Source: a virus (taxonomy: Duplodnaviria > Heunggongvirae > Uroviricota > Caudoviricetes). Taken from it: a stretch of 40,004 nucleotides of DNA. The DNA is taken from IMG/VR virus record IMGVR_UViG_2645727669_000017; one strand, written 5' to 3'. Below, in pieces: positions 4,937 to 39,398 of this stretch. Under the pieces are notes generated by a model. The model saw only the letters and a program-made list of their open reading frames with translations. It was not told where the DNA came from and ran no database searches. How positions within the stretch are numbered: the stretch's first letter is position 1; each line of letters begins with the position of its first letter. A program made the translations under genes and the position numbers.

Positions 4937-5550
4937 CCTTCACAGTTGTAATCACTACAGCCTTCAAAATCATATGGGTTGTACTGCCAGGTGATTTTTC
5001 CGCAATGCGGACAATTCCAACGCACCTTCCCGCTTCGCGACTTCTTTCTTCTGTTCTGCTTTTTCAACCAGTCAGGCATGACCAAACCTGCGCCCTGAAC
5101 CATTGTTCTGCGGTTAAAGTTATTGATATTGAACGTCCGGCGCTTTGCTGAATCAGCAATGGAAAATGGCAACCAAACTATTCCTGGTTCGTTTTTGTTG
5201 GCGACGCTAAAGATGGTCGCTTTACTGAAGTCATCTGTTGGCAATCCACCGTGTTGAAGCCAGTAAACATCGTTGCCGTTCCAGCTACTTTTTTTGTAGG
5301 CCACATACGCAGTGCAATCTGGCTCAATCAGGTTTTCTGTAGGGATGTACTGGTAATCAACGTGCCACACAGCCATTGCATCCACGCTATCAGCGCAAAC
5401 AGGCTGATCGATATCTCGACCACAATTCCAGGCTTTTTGGGCTTCTTCCAGCGTGTAAACATGAGCGCGATCGATATTAGAACTGTAACCATTGCCGTTA
5501 TGGCAATGGAATGAAGCGTTATTACCCACAGTTTCACGCAAGCACATCAT
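4924..5550 (-). CDS. Hypothetical early protein with C-terminal Cys-rich zinc-ribbon-like motif
   Basis: ORF 4924..5601; an internal Met (MMCLRE) gives a start that does not overlap the upstream gene; C-terminal CPHCGKITW...CSDYNC. Confidence 0.45.
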   Translation of the reverse strand: MMCLRETVGNNASFHCHNGNGYSSNIDRAHVYTLEEAQKAWNCGRDIDQPVCADSVDAMAVWHVDYQYIPTENLIEPDCTAYVAYKKSSWNGNDVYWLQHGGLPTDDFSKATIFSVANKNEPGIVWLPFSIADSAKRRTFNINNFNRRTMVQGAGLVMPDWLKKQNRRKKSRSGKVRWNCPHCGKITWQYNPYDFEGCSDYNCEGWRE

Positions 5551-5564
5551 GTAAAAGCGGTTAT

Positions 5565-5915
5565 TCACTGGTTGCCTCCTTTGCGAATCTGTTCCGCCCA
5601 TTCTTCAAGGGATTTCTCCGCATATTCACCGGACAGACCATCAATCGGGTGCGGTTCATTAGCCAACTCATCTTTCGCTGACAGAATCATGCGTGTAACG
5701 TCGAAAACTTCACGTAAAGACTTATTGATAAATCCGTGATTGAACGCAGCAGCAAGGCGGCTTGCGGTATAGTTAATACCCTCGTTGCGAGCCTCAGCAC
5801 GTACTTCATCGAATTTACGCACCAGATACTCAGCATTTGTTTCATTCACTTTCAGATCTCGCGGTACACATTTCCCGCGAAGAAACCCTTCCATTTCGAA
5901 AACATTCATGCGCAT
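5565..5915 (-). CDS. Hypothetical early protein (possibly CPS-53 YfdS-like)
   Basis: 116-aa ORF; alternative start at 5909 forms an ATGA overlap with the upstream stop. Confidence 0.5.
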   Translation of the reverse strand: MRMNVFEMEGFLRGKCVPRDLKVNETNAEYLVRKFDEVRAEARNEGINYTASRLAAAFNHGFINKSLREVFDVTRMILSAKDELANEPHPIDGLSGEYAEKSLEEWAEQIRKGGNQ

Positions 5916-14995: not shown

Positions 14996-15991
14996 GTGAC
15001 CGTGAGAGCACTACTGACCCCTGAAATTGCCCCGCGTATGGGGATCGTATTGTTCAGGCCAGGTTCAGAGCTGATGCCCCTGTTTATGCAGGGGCGTGTC
15101 CTGCTGGAGCCTGAGCCGGAGCGTTATTCATCTTTCGCCAGTGGTGCCGTTCCGGCGGCATCACAACCGCTGGCGGATGATCCTGCCGTTCGGGCCGTGT
15201 TCCGCAATGAGGCAGTGATCCGTCGTGCTGGTGGCGTGGAATGTCTTGAAAGCTGGTTACTTCGTGAAAAAGGCTGCCAGTGGCCTCATTCCGACTGGCA
15301 CAGCGAGAACATGACCACAATGCGACACGCTCCGGGTGCAATCCGTCTGTGCTGGCACTGCGATAACCAGCTGCGCGATCAGTTCACGGAACGGCTGGAA
15401 TCAATGGCAACGGATAACTGTGCCCGCTGGGTGTTGTCTGTTGTGCGTCGGGATCTCGGTTTTGATGACAGTCACGTTGTGACAATGCCGGAACTGTGCT
15501 GGTGGCTGATTCGTAATGATCTGGCGGATGCCTTACCGGAAAGTGCAGCCCGTAAGGCACTGAGATTACCGAAGCCTGTTGTGCCGTCTGTTACCCGGGA
15601 AAGTGACCTTGTGCCTTCGGTTCCTGCCACCAGCATCATCCAGGATAAGGCGAAAAAGGTGCTGGCGCTGAAAGTGGATCCGGAGTCGCCGGAGTCTTTT
15701 ATGTTACGCCCAAAACGTCGCCGCTGGGTTAATGAAAAGTACACGCGCTGGGTTAAGACACAGCCGTGTGCATGTTGTGGAAAGCCCGCTGATGATCCCC
15801 ACCACCTGATAGGTCACGGTCAGGGTGGAATGGGAACAAAAGCGCATGACCTTTTTGTGTTGCCTTTGTGCAGAAAGCATCACGACGAGCTGCATGCGGA
15901 TACCGTGGCATTTGAAGAGAAGTATGGCTCCCAGCTGGAGCTGATATTTCGTTTTATCGATCGTGCGCTGGCAATTGGCGTGCTGGCCTGA
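14996..15991 (+). CDS. DUF968-like prophage protein with C-terminal HNH-type zinc-finger nuclease motif
   Basis: 331-aa ORF (GTG start); C-terminal [13 protein letters not shown]...HHDELH typical of HNH/DUF968 proteins of lambdoid nin regions. Confidence 0.6.
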
Positions 15992-16008
15992 TTTTGTGGA
16001 GAAAGTTG

Positions 16009-16374
16009 ATGCGTGATATTCAAATGGTTCTTGAACGTTGGGGGGCATGGGTGGCAAATAATCACGAGGATGTCACCTGGTCGTCTATTGCTGCAGGATT
16101 TAAAGGACTAATCCCTTCAAAAGTAAAATCCCGCCCGCAATGTTGTGACGATGACGCGATGATCATTTGTGGATGCATGGCTCGCCTGAAAAAGAACAAC
16201 AGCGATTTGCACGATTTATTAGTGGATTATTATGTAGGTGGTATGACTTTTATGGCGCTTGCCCGTAAACATGGGCGTTCTGATTGCTGGGTTGGGCGTT
16301 TATTGCAAAAGGCTGAAGGTGTAGTTGATGGCATGTTAATGATGTTAGAAATTGAGCTAGAGATGGATCGTTAG
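16009..16374 (+). CDS. Late-gene antiterminator Q (short Q family)
   Basis: ~121-aa product from internal ATG ([14 protein letters not shown]...) with Cys-rich zinc-binding core ([16 protein letters not shown]); last gene before the late region. Confidence 0.65.
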
Positions 16375-16385
16375 AAGACCTCTTA

Positions 16386-16414
16386 TTGAGGGGGTAATTG
16401 AATCAGTTTAATGT
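16386..16414 (+). promoter_or_regulatory. Candidate late promoter pR'
   Basis: TTGAGG (16386-16391), 17-nt spacer, TAATGT (16409-16414), immediately downstream of the Q stop. Confidence 0.3.
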
Positions 16415-16415
16415 G

Positions 16416-16446
16416 TGGGGAGTCGATTTATTCTCCCCATTTTATT
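16416..16446 (+). terminator. Rho-independent terminator (candidate tR') just downstream of the putative late promoter
   Basis: TGGGGAG (16416-16422), 10-nt loop, CTCCCCA (16433-16439), then a T-rich run. Confidence 0.5.
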
Positions 16447-16454
16447 TAATTTAT

Positions 16455-16901
16455 TTAAGGTTTTAATTCATCAAGACGTTGTTGGATAGTGTTTTTGCTT
16501 GCGTTGTCTGTTATAGACATTTGTTGTACTTGCCCCATTGCCATTTGAGTTTCCATCCACATATCGGCCCACACTTTTGTATCGTTATTAACTTGAGCGA
16601 TAGTAAATCTGACTTTTGATACCGGGGTTGTTGAATAGGCATTGCCGATTAACATTTGTCCAAAAACAGCAGAGCCGCCTTCCAGTTCTTTACCACATAT
16701 AACACTGCTGTTATCCGCGTTGTAAATTATCAACCCTCTACTATTGCAGTAATTCACAAGGGCATCTTTGACTTTATCTTTTGTCGTATTTTGATAAACC
16801 CCCTCAGGTTTTCCTGATTGAGTTTTCTTTATCAATGGTACGGAAGAAGTACAACCTGAAATGATAGTTGCGCTAAGTAATAGTACAGTCATTTTATTCA
16901 T
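16455..16901 (-). CDS. Lipoprotein moron of unknown function, antisense to late transcription between Q and the lysis genes
   Basis: 148-aa ORF with lipoprotein signal peptide and lipobox (LLLSATIISGC); AT-rich; opposite orientation to flanking genes. Confidence 0.6.
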   Translation of the reverse strand: MNKMTVLLLSATIISGCTSSVPLIKKTQSGKPEGVYQNTTKDKVKDALVNYCNSRGLIIYNADNSSVICGKELEGGSAVFGQMLIGNAYSTTPVSKVRFTIAQVNNDTKVWADMWMETQMAMGQVQQMSITDNASKNTIQQRLDELKP

Positions 16902-17147
16902 GTTTCTTATCCATTGTTAAGGGCATACCCACACAATTATTTTTATTGGAGATGAATAATCAACCGTTTACAATCGTAAAAAATCAAATATGCTGTTAAG
17001 AGTGGTTACTTCGCCACACAACTTAAACCCGCCGCTGAGCGGTTTTTTTGTACCTGTAAACCTGGTGCAGTACAGTAAACACGCTGGTGGTCGTGAATAC
17101 TGACTTTTTATCTTGCTGGCTTTTTAGACAAGAGTTATTGGTATGTC

Positions 17148-17375
17148 ATGTTAACCAGAAGGGAAAAAGACATGCTAAAACAGCAAGATATGACAGAAAC
17201 CGCCGCCGCAGTCCTTCATTTCTTACCTGCTGACAAGTGGGTAACGCCACGCATGATGACGAGAACTACCGGAGTAAGCGAAGCCCGGTGCCAGTTAATA
17301 CTGACTCAGTTAGTTCTGGCGGGTCTGGCGAAGGATAACGGCGGGTACGGGAATAAATTCAGACGCTGCCAGTAA
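17148..17375 (+). CDS. Small putative winged-helix DNA-binding protein
   Basis: 75-aa ORF upstream of the methyltransferase; function unknown. Confidence 0.35.
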   Translation: MLTRREKDMLKQQDMTETAAAVLHFLPADKWVTPRMMTRTTGVSEARCQLILTQLVLAGLAKDNGGYGNKFRRCQ

Positions 17376-17525
17376 TGGCGGTTTCCTGCTGTGAAAATGG
17401 GCGGCTGGTGGGTGTTGGTAGCACCTGCCAGCCATTCGCTCATGCTTACTGGTCACAAGCGAACCACGGCCCACTGCTTTAGCGCAAAAGCAGAGTGAGC
17501 CTACCAGAGTTACGCTTACTGATCC

Positions 17526-18578
17526 ATGAAAAATACTGTAAAAATAAACAGTGTTGATTTAATCAACGCTGATTGCCTGCATTTTATTCAGTCCCTGCCT
17601 GATGATTCCATTGACCTGATTGTTACCGATCCGCCGTACTTCAAGGTGAAACCCAACGGCTGGGACAATCAGTGGAAAGGGGACGAAGATTACCTTAAGT
17701 GGCTGGACCACTGTCTGGCCCAGTTCTGGCGGGTGTTAAAACCTGCCGGAAGCCTTTACCTGTTCTGTGGGCATCGCCTGGCATCTGATATTGAGATCAT
17801 GATGCGTGAACGTTTCAACGTGCTTAACCATATCATCTGGGCGAAGCCGTCCGGACGTTGGAATGGGTGTAATAAAGAAAGTCTGCGTGCATATTTTCCA
17901 GCCACAGAGCGCGTTCTGTTTGCTGAACATTACCAGGGGCCATATCGCGGCAAAAGTGACGGCTATGCGGCAAAAGAAAGGGAACTCAAACAGCACATAA
18001 TGGCACCGCTGATTTCGTATTTCAGGGATGCTCGTGCCGAACTGGGTATAACGGCAAAACAAATTGCCGAAGCCACAGGTAAGAAAAATATGGTTTCCCA
18101 CTGGTTTGGTGCCAGTCAGTGGCAGTTGCCGAATGAGGCTGACTATCGGAAGTTACAGGCACTGTTTTCCCGTATAGCGGCAGAGAAGTTTCAGGAACAA
18201 CAACTGGAACAACCACACCACCAGCTGGTGGCATCTTATGATTCACTGAATCGCAAATATTCTGAATTGCTGGATGAGTTTAAATCTCTCCGGCGCTATT
18301 TCTCCGTATCAGTCTCCGTGCCTTATACCGATGTCTGGATGCATAAACCCGTTCAGTTCTACCCGGGTAAACATCCGTGTGAGAAACCTGCGGATATGCT
18401 CCGGCAAATAATCAATGCCAGTAGTCGACCTGGTGATCTGGTTGCTGATTTTTTTATGGGATCCGGTTCCACAATAAAAGCAGCAATGGCGCTGGGGCGT
18501 CGGGCCTTAGGTGTTGAGCTTGAGTCAGAGCGGTTTAACCAGACAGTGAAAGAGATAAACGAGCTGGTGGGGAAATAA
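17526..18578 (+). CDS. Orphan N6-adenine/N4-cytosine DNA methyltransferase
   Basis: 350-aa ORF with DPPY catalytic motif (IVTDPPYF) near the N-terminus and a C-terminal AdoMet-binding region (DFFMGSGST); no adjacent restriction enzyme. Confidence 0.85.
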   Translation: MKNTVKINSVDLINADCLHFIQSLPDDSIDLIVTDPPYFKVKPNGWDNQWKGDEDYLKWLDHCLAQFWRVLKPAGSLYLFCGHRLASDIEIMMRERFNVLNHIIWAKPSGRWNGCNKESLRAYFPATERVLFAEHYQGPYRGKSDGYAAKERELKQHIMAPLISYFRDARAELGITAKQIAEATGKKNMVSHWFGASQWQLPNEADYRKLQALFSRIAAEKFQEQQLEQPHHQLVASYDSLNRKYSELLDEFKSLRRYFSVSVSVPYTDVWMHKPVQFYPGKHPCEKPADMLRQIINASSRPGDLVADFFMGSGSTIKAAMALGRRALGVELESERFNQTVKEINELVGK

Positions 18579-18584
18579 TCTGGT

Positions 18585-18606
18585 GGCCACGTAGGTGGCC
18601 TTTTTA
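18585..18606 (+). terminator. Hairpin plus T-run between the methyltransferase and the holin
   Basis: GGCCAC (18585-18590), loop GTAG, GTGGCC (18595-18600), then TTTTT. Confidence 0.4.
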
Positions 18607-18644
18607 TTTCCATTACACAGCACCCGCATCTGCGAGGTGGGGTT

Positions 18645-18860
18645 ATGAAATCCATGGATAAGTTAACAACGGGTGTCGCCTATGGCACCTCAGCAGGTAG
18701 TGCCGGGTACTGGTTTTTACAGTTGCTCGATAAAGTCACGCCCTCACAGTGGGCGGCAATAGGTGTGCTGGGTAGTCTGGTATTTGGCTTGCTGACGTAT
18801 CTGACAAACCTTTATTTCAAGATTAAAGAAGATAAGCGTAAGGCTGCGAGAGGTGAATAA
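18645..18860 (+). CDS. Class II holin (phage 21 S-type pinholin) with dual start
   Basis: 71-aa ORF; two TM segments; MKSMDK dual-start arrangement (ATG 18645 and 18654); strong resemblance to the S21 holin. Confidence 0.85.
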
Positions 18861-35983: not shown

Positions 35984-38146
35984 ATGGGTAAAGGTAGCAG
36001 TAAGGGGCATACCCCGCGCGAAGCGAAGGACAACCTGAAGTCCACGCAGCTGCTGAGTGTGATCGATGCCATCAGCGAAGGGCCGGTTGAAGGTCCGGTG
36101 GATGGATTAAAAAGCGTGCTGCTGAACAGTACGCCGGTGCTGGACAGTGAGGGGAATACCAATATCTCCGGCGTCACGGTGGTGTTCCGGGCAGGTGAGC
36201 AGGAGCAGACACCGCCTGAGGGCTTTGAATCCTCCGGCTCCGAGACGGTGCTGGGTACGGAAGTGAAATATGACACGCCGATCACCCGGACCATCACGTC
36301 GGCAAACATTGACCGTCTGCGTTTTACTTTCGGCGTGCAGGCACTGGTGGAAACCACCTCAAAGGGTGACCGGAATCCGTCGGAAGTCCGCCTGCTGGTT
36401 CAGATACAACGTAACGGTGGCTGGGTGACGGAAAAAGACATCACCATTAAGGGCAAAACCACGTCGCAGTATCTGGCCTCGGTGGTGGTGGATAACCTGC
36501 CGCCGCGCCCGTTCAATATCCGGATGCGCAGGATGACGCCGGACAGCACCACAGACCAGCTGCAGAACAAAACGCTCTGGTCGTCATACACCGAAATCAT
36601 CGATGTGAAACAGTGCTACCCGAACACGGCACTGGTCGGCGTACAGGTGGACTCGGAGCAGTTCGGCAGCCAGCAGGTGAGCCGTAATTATCATCTTCGC
36701 GGGCGCATTCTGCAGGTGCCGTCGAACTATAACCCGCAGACGCGGCAATACAGCGGTATCTGGGACGGAACGTTAAAACCGGCATACAGCAACAACCCGG
36801 CCTGGTGTCTGTGGGATATGCTGACCCATCCGCGCTACGGCATGGGGAAACGTCTTGGTGCGGCGGATGTGGATAAATGGGCGCTGTATGTCATCGGCCA
36901 GTACTGCGACCAGGCAGTGCCGGACGGCTTTGGCGGCACGGAGCCGCGCATCACCTGTAATGCCTACCTGACCACACAGCGCAAGGCGTGGGATGTGCTC
37001 AGTGATTTCTGCTCGGCGATGCGCTGTATGCCGGTATGGAACGGGCAGACGCTGACGTTCGTGCAGGACCGGCCATCGGATAAGGTGTGGACCTATAACC
37101 GCAGTAATGTGGTGATGCCGGATGATGGCGCGCCGTTCCGCTACAGCTTCAGCGCCCTGAAAGACCGCCATAATGCCGTTGAGGTGAACTGGATTGACCC
37201 GAACAACGGCTGGGAGACGGCAACAGAGCTTGTGGAGGACACGCAGGCCATTGCCCGTTACGGTCGTAACGTCACGAAGATGGATGCCTTTGGCTGTACC
37301 AGCCGGGGGCAGGCACACCGCGCCGGGCTGTGGCTGATTAAAACAGAACTGCTGGAAACGCAGACCGTGGACTTCTGCGTGGGCGCAGAAGGGCTTCGCC
37401 ATGTGCCGGGCGATGTCATTGAAATCTGTGATGATGACTATGCCGGTATCAGCACCGGCGGGCGCGTGCTGGCGGTAAACAGCCAGACCCGGACGCTGAC
37501 GCTCGACCGTGAAATCACGCTGCCATCCTCCGGTACCACGCTGATAAGCCTGGTTGACGGAAGTGGCAATCCGGTCAGCGTGGAGGTTCAGTCCGTCACC
37601 GACGGCGTGAAGGTAAAAGTGAGCCGTGTTCCTGACGGCGTTGCTGAATACAGCGTATGGGGGCTGAAGCTGCCGACGTTGCGCCAGCGCCTGTTCCGCT
37701 GCGTGAGTATCCGTGAGAACGACGACGGCACGTACGCCATCACAGCCGTGCAGCATGTCCCGGAAAAAGAGGCCATCGTGGATAACGGGGCGCACTTTGA
37801 CGGCGACCAGAGCGGCACGGTGAATGGTGTCACGCCGCCAGCGGTGCAGCACCTGACCGCAGAAGTCACCGCAGACAGCGGGGAATATCAGGTGCTGGCG
37901 CGATGGGACACACCGAAGGTGGTGAAGGGCGTGAGCTTCATGCTCCGCCTGACCGTAACAGCAGACGACGGCAGTGAGCGGCTGGTCAGCACGGCCCGGA
38001 CGACGGAAACCACATACCGCTTCACGCAACTGGCCCTGGGAAACTACACGCTGACAGTCCGGGCGGCAAATGCCTGGGGGCAGCAGGGCGATCCGGCATC
38101 GGTATCGTTCCGGATTGCCGCACCGGCAGCACCTGTCACGGATTGA
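35984..38146 (+). CDS. J: Tail tip / host specificity protein J, N-terminal ~720 aa, ending prematurely because of a frameshift
   Basis: [26 protein letters not shown]... J-like through ...[10 protein letters not shown], then VTD-stop; lambda J is ~1130 aa in one frame. Confidence 0.85.
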
Positions 38147-39398
38147 ACTGACACCAGGCTATTTTCAGATAACAGCAACCCCGAAACTGGCCGTATATGA
38201 CCCGACGGTACAGTTTGAGTTCTGGTTCTCGGAAAAGCGGATTACCGATATCAGGCAGGTTGAAACCACAGCCCGCTATCTTGGCACGGCGCTGTACTGG
38301 ATAGCCGCCAGTAGCAATATCAAACCGGGCCATGATTATTACTTTTATATCCGCAGCGTGAACACCGTAGGCAAATCGGCATTTGTGGAGGCCGTCGGTC
38401 GGGCGAGCGATGATGCGGAAGGTTACCTGAATTTTTACAAAGGCCAGATAAACAAAACCCATCTCGGCAAGGAACTGCTGGAAAAAGTCGAGCTGACGGA
38501 GGATAACGCCAGCAAACTGGAGGAGTTTTCGAAAGAGTGGAAGGACGCCAACGATAAATGGAATGCCATGTGGGCCGTCAAAATTGAGCAGACCAAAGAC
38601 GGCAAACATTATGTCGCGGGTATTGGCCTCAGCATGGAGGACACGGAGGAAGGCAAACTGAGCCAGTTTCTGGTTGCCGCTAACCGTATCGCATTTATTG
38701 ACCCGGCAAACGGGAATGAAACGCCGATGTTTGTGGCGCAGGGCAACCAGATATTCATGAACGACGTGTTCCTGAAACGCCTGACGGCCCCCACCATTAC
38801 CAGCGGTGGAAATCCACCGGCATTTTCCCTGACACCAGACGGAAAGCTGACCGCTAAAAATGCGGATATCAGTGGCAGAGTGAATGCGAACGCCGGGACG
38901 CTCAACAATGTCACGGTAAATGAAAACTGTACGATTAAGGGCATGCTGGAGGCGACCCAAGTCAGAGGGGACTTCGTTAAAGCTGTATCCAAATCATTTC
39001 CGAAACAGGCTGGTACGTGGGGTAACACGGAAACACCAAACGGGACGGTTACAGTCACCATCAGCGATGATCATAACTTTGACCGTCAAATCATTATTCC
39101 GCCCATTATCTTTAACGGAATAGCGTATAGCTATCCGGGAAGTGGTAATAACCCGGGAGGTAAAAGTTACACGGGTTATGGTTTTGAAGTTCGCAAAAAC
39201 GGTGTATTAATCGCATCCAGAGAAACTAAAGGGGCCATTCCCGGTAGCTACAGTGCGGTTATTGATATGCCGAGTGGCAGGGGAAGCGTCACTCTGGAGT
39301 TTAAGGTTTTCCATAAAGGCAATCAGTGGGCAGGTAATATCACCGACTGTACGGTGATTGTGACCAAAAAAGCCGCTTCCGGCATCAGTATTCGTTGA
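38070..39398 (+). CDS. J: C-terminal receptor-binding portion of J in the +1 frame (J-like sequence begins ~38136)
   Basis: Frame-B ORF reads [31 protein letters not shown]... to the J C-terminus; the upstream part of this ORF overlaps the end of the N-terminal J ORF. Confidence 0.7.

What the first reader, a model, noticed from the sequence alone, without database searches (positions are those of the whole stretch)
16455..16901. Reverse-oriented lipoprotein moron in the Q-to-lysis interval (the stx position of Stx phages)
An AT-rich 148-aa lipoprotein gene on the opposite strand lies between Q and the lysis cassette. This is the slot where Shiga-toxin phages carry stx and where morons usually sit. 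Its orientation suggests expression from the prophage independent of late transcription; it could be a surface-exposed fitness or exclusion factor.
Basis: partly seen in the sequence, partly recalled or inferred. Interest (0 to 1): 0.55.

Follow-up and report, generated by a model that had tools for sequence, protein, structure and literature searches.

The report
Prophage lipoprotein moron beside Q
A real, conserved but uncharacterised phage "add-on" gene for an outer-membrane lipoprotein sits backwards just after the late-gene activator Q; it occupies the slot where related phages carry a porin gene (not the Shiga-toxin slot), and it most likely blocks entry of related phages, though that is untested.

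Summary
16455..16901(-) is an intact 148-aa ORF with a canonical lipobox (I-S-G-C17), 38% GC against 50% for the window. It lies between Q (16009..16374) and the lysis genes.

It is not in the stx sub-slot. It lies upstream of the conserved pR'-like promoter and terminator (16967..17049). That is where PA-2, DLP12 and PhiR29_1 carry the reverse-oriented porin gene lc/nmpC/ompD, and where phage 1H12 carries lipocalin Blc. In a Stx2k phage, stx lies about 1.4 kb further downstream, after the tRNAs, co-oriented with the late genes.

The gene is full length in 185 of 5426 complete E. coli genomes, always linked to this Q allele, and in the viable phages PhiR40_1 and PhiR55_1. It matches PHROG 3152 (function unknown) and no Pfam, NCBIfam or PDB family. 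The predicted fold is generic: alpha/beta, resembling TBP-like, KA1 and BamC N-terminal domains.

Homologues are under purifying selection. In 27-28 of 35 other loci they sit co-oriented inside lambda-like tail modules (H|M, M|L, K|I), as known exclusion morons do.

Best guess, at about 0.4: a periplasm-facing outer-membrane lipoprotein that blocks entry of lambda-like siphophages. It is a new member of a known kind, of moderate interest.

The parts
16009..16374 (+). Antiterminator Q (phage 82/DLP12 QuuD family); left boundary of the slot. The ORF listing offers a TTG start at 15994, but RefSeq and GenBank annotate the 366-nt version.
   Evidence: PF06530, E 2.1e-51. Annotated as 366 nt in PhiR40_1 and in the O157 prophage. 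Homology to other Q-bearing phages ends at or before 16368.
16417..16450 (+). Hairpin GGGGAG-N10-CUCCCC followed by a T-rich tract on the + strand. It looks like an intrinsic terminator for rightward (pR/Q) transcription. The same hairpin, without a U-tract, closes the 3' end of the leftward lipoprotein mRNA. It belongs to the inserted block.
   Evidence: Terminator scan. Fold -15.8 kcal/mol, z -2.8. The sequence after Q differs between phages with different cargo, and each cargo has its own hairpin.
16455..16901 (-). Lipoprotein CDS, 148 aa, PHROG 3152. The signal peptide is residues 1-16. The lipobox ISGC is at nt 16862-16851 and the Cys17 codon at 16853-16851. The mature protein is 131-132 aa, about 14.5 kDa, pI about 8.5.
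16936..16963 (-). Candidate sigma-70 promoter for the lipoprotein gene (TTGATT-16-AATAAT, 9/12), back-to-back with the rightward promoter. This is a consensus-level call only.
   Evidence: A higher-scoring match at 16920..16891 overlaps the start codon and cannot serve the annotated ORF.
16967..16994 (+). Inferred late promoter pR' (TTTACA-16-TATGCT); right boundary of the slot.
   Evidence: The 65-85 bp segment is conserved in PA-2, 434B/DLP12 and many phages with Q82-family genes, whatever cargo lies between Q and the segment. The 25-mer TATGCTGTTAAGAGTGGTTACTTCG is exact in the window, PhiR40_1, the O157 prophage, PA-2 and 434B.
17031..17049 (+). Inferred tR'-like intrinsic terminator (GCCGCUGAGCGG plus U7), about 30-50 nt downstream of the inferred start.
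   Evidence: The homologous site is annotated 'terminator' in phages Ayreon and SfV.
17148..17375 (+). Context: small ORF (75 aa, PHROG 331, annotated 'TrmB family' in some records), the first gene of the late leader. It is shared with Stx2c, Stx2k, cdtI and phiP27 phages.
17526..18578 (+). Context: DNA N6/N4 methyltransferase. It occupies the part of the Q-S interval that corresponds positionally to the stx slot (downstream of pR'-tR', co-oriented).
   Evidence: PF01555. PADLOC MTase_II, E 3e-152. Compared with the Stx2k phage layout.

Best explanation
SHOWN. The block from about 16375 to 16965 is a moron: an AT-rich insert of about 590 bp carrying one gene. The gene encodes a Sec/LspA-type lipoprotein of an uncharacterised family, PHROG 3152. 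The block sits between Q and the conserved promoter/terminator segment, pointing away from the late genes. This is the slot where sister phages with Q of the same family carry other reverse-oriented outer-membrane protein genes: the porin Lc/NmpC/OmpD, or the lipocalin Blc.

INFERRED, expression. The gene is transcribed leftward from its own sigma-70-type promoter, back-to-back with pR'. A terminator just after Q shields it from rightward read-through. It can therefore be expressed from the repressed prophage, independently of Q.

INFERRED, location. The product is lipidated at Cys17 and sorted by Lol to the inner leaflet of the outer membrane, because +2 is Thr. A flexible tether of about 12 residues then presents a compact disulfide-containing alpha/beta domain to the periplasm.

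INFERRED, function (most likely). The domain blocks cell entry by lambda-like siphophages. This would give superinfection exclusion in the lysogen. Where the gene is embedded in the late tail operon, it would also protect progeny from abortive adsorption or injection. The block would work in one of two ways:
- by binding the periplasmic face of an outer-membrane receptor, as T5 Llp and Cor do; or
- by intercepting the incoming tail tip, tape-measure protein or NlpC/P60 protein gpK, in the manner of HK97 gp15, Streptococcus Ltp or T4 Sp.

Confidence. That it is a bona fide moron lipoprotein in the lc/nmpC slot: about 0.9. That its function is a block to phage entry: about 0.4. The figure given below is the second.
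For: Gene reality and lipoprotein features.

Moron features:
- GC 0.33-0.38 against 0.50 for the window.
- The gene is also AT-poorer than its flanks in Jejubacter, Phytobacter and other prophages.
- Promoter and terminator candidates flank it.
- Alternative cargo occupies the same slot.

Slot definition: the conserved pR'-like segment, and stx lying further downstream in a Stx2k phage.

Periplasmic, protein-binding character:
- C52 and C69 are conserved in at least 90% of 57 diverse members.
- Some relatives are fused to PDZ or TPR/YfiO domains.

Exclusion hypothesis:
- 27-28 of 35 non-redundant homologous loci place the gene co-oriented inside lambda-like tail modules. There are at least five different junctions: before H, H|M, M|L, K|I and after TMP.
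- The gaps to the neighbouring tail genes are often only 11-85 bp.
- This is the habitat of proven exclusion morons: HK97 gp15 between the tail chaperone and TMP, and Cor (PMC3594210); and the mEpimmI Lpp lipoproteins, which exclude OmpA- or LamB-dependent phages (PMC11893012).
- The lipoprotein diverges much faster than the adjacent K and J N-terminal region. It is 46-50% identical where K is 70-80% and J-N is 75-85%. This is similar to the J receptor-binding end.
- The only cargo with a known phenotype in the same Q slot, Lc of PA-2, is by my own knowledge a lysogenic-conversion porin that replaces the phage's OmpC receptor.
Against: - No experiment, transcript or phenotype is available.
- There is no sequence or convincing fold relationship to any known exclusion protein. 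hhalign against Cor and Bor aligns only the signal peptide. There is no PADLOC hit.
- The three E. coli carriers examined have J C-termini only about 50% identical to one another. The Salmonella and Jejubacter copies are 85% identical although their J C-termini are only 39% identical. The protein is therefore not tightly tied to one receptor-binding domain.
- The family also occurs outside recognisable prophages: in Halomonas and Sphingosinicella, in a chromosomal PDZ fusion, and next to a MobA/MobL element. This points to a more general envelope function that phages may simply have borrowed.
- The promoter call is consensus-level, 9 of 12.
- pR' is inferred from conservation and was not mapped.
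Confidence: 0.4

Rival explanations
1. Host-fitness or virulence conversion factor unrelated to phages: an outer-membrane lipoprotein that increases serum resistance, adhesion or stress tolerance of the lysogen, as lambda Bor/Iss or plasmid TraT do.
For: It is a reverse-oriented lipoprotein moron next to the lysis region, like bor. It is found in pathogenic lineages, including O157:H7 and ETEC strains. Sister cargos in the same slot, a porin and Blc, are envelope proteins with host-physiology roles.
Against: There is no homology to Bor beyond the signal peptide. There is no Pfam hit to Lambda_Bor or TraT. The strong bias of homologues to the inside of tail operons, co-transcribed with late genes, is hard to explain for a lysogen-only virulence factor. 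Carriers span commensal, animal, environmental and clinical strains with no pathotype enrichment evident.
Confidence: 0.15
2. General periplasmic envelope factor borrowed from bacteria, for example a small helix-grip, BamC-like or TBP-like domain that binds an envelope protein or lipid. It would be carried by phages as a passenger or to condition the envelope, for example for outer-membrane stability during late infection or lysis timing, without blocking other phages.
For: The family has 823 representative clusters at E<=1e-3. It includes non-phage chromosomal members and PDZ/TPR fusions. The fold resembles BamC-N, Flpp3 and DUF4468. Operon-embedded copies would be expressed late, in a cell that is about to lyse.
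Confidence: 0.25
3. stx-like late cargo: a gene expressed from pR' by Q antitermination on induction and released at lysis. This follows the first reader's positional analogy.
For: It lies in the Q-to-S interval.
Against: It is on the opposite strand and upstream of the conserved promoter/terminator segment. stx in a Stx2k phage lies downstream of the homologue of window 17026-17200 and of the tRNAs, co-oriented.
Confidence: 0.03
4. A non-functional or decaying ORF.
For: There is no annotation beyond 'hypothetical protein' or 'Lipoprotein'.
Against: It is full length in 185 of 185 genomes. pN is far below the saturated pS. 25 columns are invariant across 21 homologues. The fold prediction is confident.
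Confidence: 0.02

Closest known systems
lc (phage PA-2), nmpC (DLP12/qsr') and ompD-like porin morons
   Same: The slot and orientation are identical: immediately downstream of a Q82-family antiterminator, reverse-oriented, and upstream of the same conserved promoter/terminator segment that precedes the holin. Both are outer-membrane proteins and both are AT-rich inserts with their own signals.
   Different: Lc and NmpC are 16-strand porins of about 365 aa. This is a 148-aa lipoprotein with no sequence relationship to them. In PA-2 the porin promoter region is about 370 bp from pR'. Here the two candidate promoters are back-to-back, about 4 bp apart.
Lipocalin Blc gene of phage 1H12 (Jouyvirus)
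   Same: A reverse-oriented outer-membrane lipoprotein gene directly after a Q that is 85.6% identical at the DNA level.
   Different: There is no sequence similarity (BLASTP E 0.9). Blc is a lipocalin beta-barrel. The segment after it in 1H12 is not the conserved pR' segment.
Cor (phi80/N15/HK022) and T5 Llp receptor-blocking lipoproteins
   Same: Small phage-encoded outer-membrane lipoproteins, genetically associated with tail or receptor-binding genes in most family members. This is the mechanism proposed here.
   Different: The mature domains are unrelated: hhalign aligns only the signal peptide of Cor. Cor (77 aa) and Llp (about 60 aa mature; my own knowledge) are much smaller. No FhuA link is shown. 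Llp was not directly compared.
HK97 gp15, mEpimmI Lpp021/Lpp010 and Streptococcus Ltp exclusion morons
   Same: Morons embedded in siphophage tail or structural modules that block entry of phages with matching tails or receptors (PMC3594210; PMC11893012).
   Different: gp15 is an inner-membrane YebO-like protein, not a lipoprotein. tblastn of this protein at E<=1e-3 found only PhiR40_1 and PhiR55_1 among 50,697 phage records; I did not confirm that the mEp genomes are in that collection.
Lambda Bor / Iss
   Same: A reverse-oriented lipoprotein moron near the lysis cassette, expressed from the prophage (PMC3594210).
   Different: Bor lies after Rz, not after Q. It is 97 aa, and only the signal peptide aligns.

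Membership tests
Bacterial lipoprotein (Lgt/LspA/Lnt substrate) | N-terminal signal peptide with a positive n-region and hydrophobic core, ending in the lipobox [LVI][ASTVI][GAS]C | tested here: met
   MNK-MTVLLLSATI-ISG-C17. The Cys is invariant in 21 and in 57 aligned homologues.
Bacterial lipoprotein (Lgt/LspA/Lnt substrate) | Outer-membrane sorting: no Asp at +2 (Lol avoidance rule, established knowledge) | tested here: met
   +2 is Thr. Homologues have A, T or V at that position.
Bacterial lipoprotein (Lgt/LspA/Lnt substrate) | Actual lipidation and membrane localisation | not testable with these tools
   This needs globomycin or palmitate labelling and membrane fractionation.
Moron (Juhala et al. 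2000; reviewed in PMC3594210) | Extra DNA relative to related phages, with base composition different from its surroundings | tested here: met
   GC 0.33-0.38 against 0.50. Phages with Q of the same family carry different cargo in this slot. Homologues sit at at least seven different positions in other prophages. No empty site with this exact Q allele was found.
Moron (Juhala et al. 2000; reviewed in PMC3594210) | Own promoter and terminator | tested here: inconclusive
   There is a 9/12 sigma-70 match at 16963..16936 and a hairpin at 16417-16439. These are consensus-level calls only. Many tail-embedded relatives have no room for their own terminator, with gaps of 11-25 bp.
Moron (Juhala et al. 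2000; reviewed in PMC3594210) | Expression from the repressed prophage | not testable with these tools
   No transcriptome of a carrier strain was available.
stx-type late-operon cargo of Stx phages | Located downstream of pR'-tR' (and the tRNAs), co-oriented with late genes, so that expression depends on Q | tested here: not met
   The gene is on the opposite strand and upstream of the conserved promoter/terminator segment. The layout of phiSTEC1575-Stx2k is shown.
lc/nmpC-type Q-proximal conversion gene | Reverse-oriented outer-membrane protein gene between a Q82-family gene and the conserved pR' segment | tested here: met
lc/nmpC-type Q-proximal conversion gene | Porin (OmpC/OmpF family) homology | tested here: not met
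   No Pfam family at E<=0.01.
PHROG 3152 | Full-length match to the family HMM | tested here: met
   E 3.2e-104, residues 1-148 against profile positions 1-148 of 148. The family is annotated 'unknown function'.
Cor superinfection-exclusion lipoprotein | Homology of the mature domain | tested here: not met
   hhalign of A1 against HK022 Cor aligns residues 1-31 only, which is the signal peptide.
Bor/Iss serum-resistance lipoprotein | Homology of the mature domain (PF06291) | tested here: not met
   hhalign aligns residues 1-38 only. No Pfam hit.
T5 Llp | Homology or shared fold of the mature domain | not tested
   No direct comparison was run. The only PHROG hit was 3152. tblastn found only PhiR40_1 and PhiR55_1 among 50,697 phage records. 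The size differs, 131 against about 60 mature residues (my own knowledge).
Known anti-phage defence systems (PADLOC) | Match to a defence-protein HMM | tested here: not met
   The best hit was PbeC, E 0.014, 11.9 bits, a partial match.
BamC-like, KA1 or TBP-like helix-grip domain | Significant structural superposition | tested here: inconclusive

The most novel reading that the evidence does not exclude
PHROG 3152 and its relatives would be a previously unrecognised, widespread family of periplasm-facing outer-membrane lipoproteins that travel inside lambda-like tail-tip modules. They would block DNA delivery by siphophages, either by a new route or by allosteric receptor masking. The new route could be binding the ejected tape-measure protein, or the gpK NlpC/P60 tail-tip protein, in the periplasm. 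In E. coli the gene would have been re-wired into the Q-pR' slot for constitutive expression in the lysogen.
Probability: 0.3. Interest if true: 0.6.

Novelty: new member of a known kind. Interest (0 to 1): 0.4.

Why it matters
About 3% of complete E. coli genomes, including O157:H7 and ETEC strains, carry this gene, and its function is unknown.

If it is an entry-exclusion factor, it would add a new protein family to the small set of envelope-level phage blocks. It would affect the host range of temperate phages and of therapeutic siphophages. Because the family sits next to TMP, M, L, K, I and J, it would also give a handle on the poorly understood periplasmic step of lambda-like DNA delivery.

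The comparison also sharpens the map of the Q-S interval. There are two distinct cargo slots:
- A reverse-oriented 'envelope protein' slot between Q and pR', holding a porin, Blc or this lipoprotein.
- A co-oriented late-leader slot, holding stx, tRNAs or a methylase.

If the gene is not an exclusion factor, it is one more ordinary prophage moron.

Tried and rejected
- Sequence family searches gave nothing beyond the PHROG match. Pfam, NCBIfam and PADLOC were tried on the protein. Pfam was tried on ten distant homologues at E<=1 and NCBIfam on all 57 members of A3; only signal-peptide-level or noise hits came back.
- PDB sequence searches with the single protein and with the profile found only lipoprotein signal peptides.
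- The Rfam scan of 15900-18700 gave no hit.
- Fur, CRP and LexA boxes upstream of the gene did not exceed the background of the window.
- I looked for an 'empty' Q-pR' junction with this Q allele in 5426 E. coli genomes and found none. The allele is always linked to the lipoprotein.
- I tested linkage to one J receptor-binding domain and it was not supported. The C-termini of three carriers are only about 50% identical, and the signal among tail-embedded relatives is mixed.
- Literature searches for the RefSeq accession and for the pR' sequence string returned nothing.
- The source paper of the PhiR phages (Brenes & Laub 2025) is not held.
- The Xenorhabdus homologue's name, 'VirB7 lipoprotein', is a signal-peptide artefact of automatic annotation.
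- The best-scoring promoter match, at 16920..16891, was rejected because its -10 element lies inside the ORF.

Full report
**1. Observation**

- The N-terminus is MNKMTVLLLSATIISGC. It has a positive n-region, a hydrophobic core and the lipobox I-S-G-C17. Residue +2 is Thr, so under the Lol rule (established knowledge) the mature protein should go to the outer membrane.
- The CDS is 37.8% GC and its two flanking spacers are 33-34% GC, against 50.5% for the window.
- On the left is an antiterminator Q (PF06530, E 2e-51). RefSeq-style coordinates for it are 16009..16374.
- On the right are a 75-aa ORF, a DNA methyltransferase, a P21-type holin, a lysozyme and Rz/Rz1.

**2. It is a real gene**

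- The protein matches PHROG 3152 end to end (E 3e-104, function unknown) and matches no Pfam or NCBIfam model.
- The identical protein is on at least 1000 contigs in the protein collection.
- The gene is present and full length in 185 of 5426 complete E. coli genomes, and 176 of those copies are at least 99% identical.
- The single unannotated copy lies in an assembly in which every neighbouring gene is frameshifted.
- It is also in two sequenced phages, PhiR40_1 and PhiR55_1. These are plated as infectious temperate phages in PMC13190303.
- Homologues of 50-72% identity occur in Salmonella, Jejubacter, Citrobacter, Enterobacter, Phytobacter, Xenorhabdus and Morganella.
- Against three of these, pN is 0.20-0.32 while pS is saturated at 0.76-0.85. 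The coding sequence is therefore under purifying selection.

**3. Which slot it occupies**

The comparisons say otherwise.

*The right boundary.* Homology to other phages resumes at 16966. An 85-bp segment there contains TTTACA-16-TATGCT (16967..16994) followed by a GC hairpin and U7 (17031..17049).

- This segment is conserved in PA-2, 434B/DLP12 and dozens of phages whose Q belongs to the same family.
- A 25-mer spanning the -10 element and the start region is exact in the window, PhiR40_1, an O157:H7 prophage, PA-2 and 434B.
- In PA-2/434B/DLP12-type phages it lies about 140 bp upstream of the holin gene, measured in 434B.
- Its terminator is annotated as such in phages Ayreon and SfV.
- I therefore infer that it is the Q-dependent late promoter pR' with its terminator tR'. 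This rests on conservation plus consensus matches, not on mapping.

*What else occupies the interval between Q and this segment.*

- PA-2, 434B/DLP12 and PhiR29_1 carry the reverse-oriented porin gene lc/nmpC/ompD.
- Phage 1H12 carries a reverse-oriented lipocalin Blc gene directly after a related Q, although the conserved segment was not found downstream of it there.
- This window carries the lipoprotein.

*Where stx lies.* In phiSTEC1575-Stx2k, stx2AB lies about 1.4 kb downstream of the homologue of window 17026-17200. It follows an HTH gene and three tRNAs and is co-oriented with the late genes. In the window, that position is taken by the methyltransferase.

The finding is therefore in the lc/nmpC slot, a known home of reverse-oriented outer-membrane conversion genes, and not in the stx slot.

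**4. Local signals**

- On the minus strand, a 9/12 sigma-70 match (TTGATT-16-AATAAT, 16963..16936) sits back-to-back with the inferred pR'.
- A better-scoring match overlaps the start codon and cannot serve this ORF.
- Between Q and the 3' end of the gene there is a hairpin (16417..16439) followed by a T-rich run on the plus strand.
- That hairpin would stop rightward read-through from Q before it runs antisense into the gene. Each alternative cargo brings its own hairpin at this place.
- The inserted block is thus about 16375..16965. With its composition, this fits the moron definition (PMC3594210), but the signals are consensus-level.
- No empty site with this exact Q allele exists among 5426 genomes; the two are always linked. 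All 50 E. coli-type IMG/VR loci keep the Q-lipoprotein-pR' order where the contig allows.

**5. The protein**

- A profile search finds 823 representative clusters at E<=1e-3, so the family is large and unnamed.
- Cys17 is invariant. Two further cysteines, C52 and C69, are conserved in at least 90% of 57 diverse members. The motifs GN-YSTTP and KVWAD-W-ETQM are strongly conserved in the closer set.
- Some relatives carry C-terminal PDZ or TPR/YfiO-like domains. This fits a periplasmic protein-binding module.
- AlphaFold2 gives a confident model (pLDDT 85, pTM 0.75). It has a disordered tether to about residue 30 and a beta-alpha-beta-beta-alpha-beta-beta-beta-alpha domain.
- There is no sequence hit in the PDB even with a profile.
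- hhalign against lambda Bor and HK022 Cor aligns only the signal peptide.
- There is no PADLOC hit.

**6. Where the relatives live**

This is the most informative result. I collected contexts from the look-up of encoding contigs and from two collection scans. I labelled neighbours with phmmer against Pfam-annotated references and spot-checked the labels with Pfam.

Of 35 non-redundant loci that are not of the E. coli Q-slot type, 27-28 have the gene co-oriented inside a lambda-like tail module. The junctions are different:

- between K and I (Morganella, Salmonella, Jejubacter and several UViGs);
- between H (TMP) and M (Citrobacter and others);
- between M and L;
- just after or just before TMP (Photorhabdus, Haemophilus and others);
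- in a Proteus-type arrangement, TMP-x-x-LP-NlpC/P60-J.

Gaps to the neighbouring tail genes are often 11-85 bp, so many copies must be co-transcribed with late tail genes. Other copies lie in an early region (Phytobacter), in a P1-like dar region, after J, next to a MobA/MobL element, or in apparently non-phage DNA (Halomonas, Sphingosinicella, and a chromosomal PDZ fusion).

The E. coli copy, reversed and parked beside Q, is the exception in its family.

Among tail-embedded copies the lipoprotein diverges much faster than the flanking K and J N-terminal region. It is 46-50% identical where K is 70-80% and J-N is 75-85%. This is roughly in step with the J C-terminus, but there are counter-examples: the Salmonella and Jejubacter copies are 85% identical although their J C-termini are only 39% identical.

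**7. Mechanism**

Shown:
- a lipoprotein moron in the lc/nmpC slot;
- anti-oriented to late transcription;
- under purifying selection;
- mobile among phages, with a strong preference for tail-tip modules.

Inferred:
- leftward transcription from its own promoter in the lysogen;
- lipidation, and Lol sorting to the periplasmic leaflet of the outer membrane;
- a tethered, disulfide-stabilised binding domain.

Most likely function, at about 0.4: a block to entry of lambda-like siphophages. The reasons are as follows.

- A secreted lipoprotein cannot be a virion part, yet it is inherited with tail-tip genes.
- That is the habitat of proven exclusion morons. Examples are HK97 gp15 beside TMP and Cor (PMC3594210), and the mEpimmI Lpp lipoproteins that exclude OmpA- or LamB-dependent phages (PMC11893012).
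- T5 Llp is encoded next to the receptor-binding protein gene and also protects progeny from receptor in debris (my own knowledge).
- The rapid divergence of the lipoprotein relative to neighbouring tail genes suggests an arms-race target.
- The only cargo with a known phenotype in the same Q slot, Lc, remodels the phage's own receptor landscape (my own knowledge).

Whether the target is a receptor's periplasmic face or the incoming tail tip, TMP or gpK cannot be decided here.

Against this reading:
- There are no data on expression or phenotype.
- There is no homology to any exclusion protein.
- The three E. coli carriers have different J C-termini, about 50% identical.
- Non-phage family members exist.

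Rivals:
- a general periplasmic envelope factor, 0.25;
- Bor-, Iss- or TraT-like host fitness, 0.15;
- stx-like late cargo, 0.03, contradicted by strand and position;
- a dead ORF, 0.02.

**8. Comparison with known systems, and novelty**

- By position, the gene works like lc/nmpC: a Q-proximal, reverse-oriented envelope conversion gene. It is not a porin.
- It may work like Cor, Llp, gp15 or the mEp Lpp proteins, but it is not a member of those that I compared directly.
- It is a member of PHROG 3152, whose function is unknown.
- As a kind, a prophage lipoprotein moron is familiar. The family itself is uncharacterised, and its wandering within tail-tip modules has not, to my knowledge, been described.
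- I rate it a new member of a known kind, with interest 0.4. It is not surprising to a phage biologist, but it offers a cheap and well-defined experiment that could uncover a new exclusion family.

Noticed in passing
window 35984-39398: The tail-tip gene J is split into two overlapping ORFs, 35984..38146 and 38070..39398. The N-part is 97.5% identical to PhiR40_1 J residues 1-717. The C-part is only about 50% identical to the J C-termini of PhiR40_1 and the O157 prophage. This is either a frameshift at a recombination junction, implying a defective prophage, or a sequencing error.
   Followed up: partly
window 17526-18578: An orphan-looking type II DNA methyltransferase (PF01555; PADLOC MTase_II, E 3e-152) sits in the late leader between tR' and the holin. 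This is the part of the interval that corresponds to the stx slot. The same module (terminator, 75-aa ORF, methylase) follows different Q types in Ayreon and mEp460.
   Followed up: partly
L018 3050-3574 (phage 1H12, NC_049947.1 41561-42085): A reverse-oriented lipocalin Blc outer-membrane lipoprotein gene occupies the same post-Q position behind a Q 85.6% identical in DNA. The Q-proximal slot therefore seems to collect outer-membrane protein genes of unrelated families: a porin, Blc and this lipoprotein.
   Followed up: partly
window 17148-17375: A 75-aa ORF (PHROG 331; 'TrmB family transcriptional regulator' in some records) immediately follows the tR'-like terminator. It is conserved at 97-98% DNA identity in Stx2c and Stx2k phages, the cdtI phage and mEp460, and at about 84% in phiP27. 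Its function is unknown.
   Followed up: no
L032, L100, L102 (Proteus-type prophages), about 5001-5886: In these loci the lipoprotein homologue lies directly upstream of a DUF6950/NlpC-P60-like gene. In the K|I group it lies directly downstream of gpK (JAB plus NlpC/P60). This recurrent adjacency to the tail-tip peptidase-like protein might point to the target.
   Followed up: no
L021 (E. coli O157:H7 NE 1092-2, NZ_CP038328.1 5200000-5236200): The O157:H7 carrier prophage is integrated next to dusA. Beyond the tail fibre genes it carries the T3SS effector gene nleG7 and a frameshifted espS pseudogene. It has the Ile-Arg-Arg tRNA block but no stx, so the lipoprotein travels with an effector-bearing, stx-less lambdoid prophage.
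   Followed up: no
window 15994-16374: the ORF listing offers a TTG start at 15994 for Q (126 aa). Public annotations use the ATG at 16009 (121 aa, MRDIQ...).
   Followed up: yes
window 16375-16380: The 3' end of this Q allele (about 16285-16374) is found in E. coli only together with the lipoprotein block. Other Q alleles of the family diverge from it before the stop codon, so one recombination boundary of the insert lies inside Q.
   Followed up: partly
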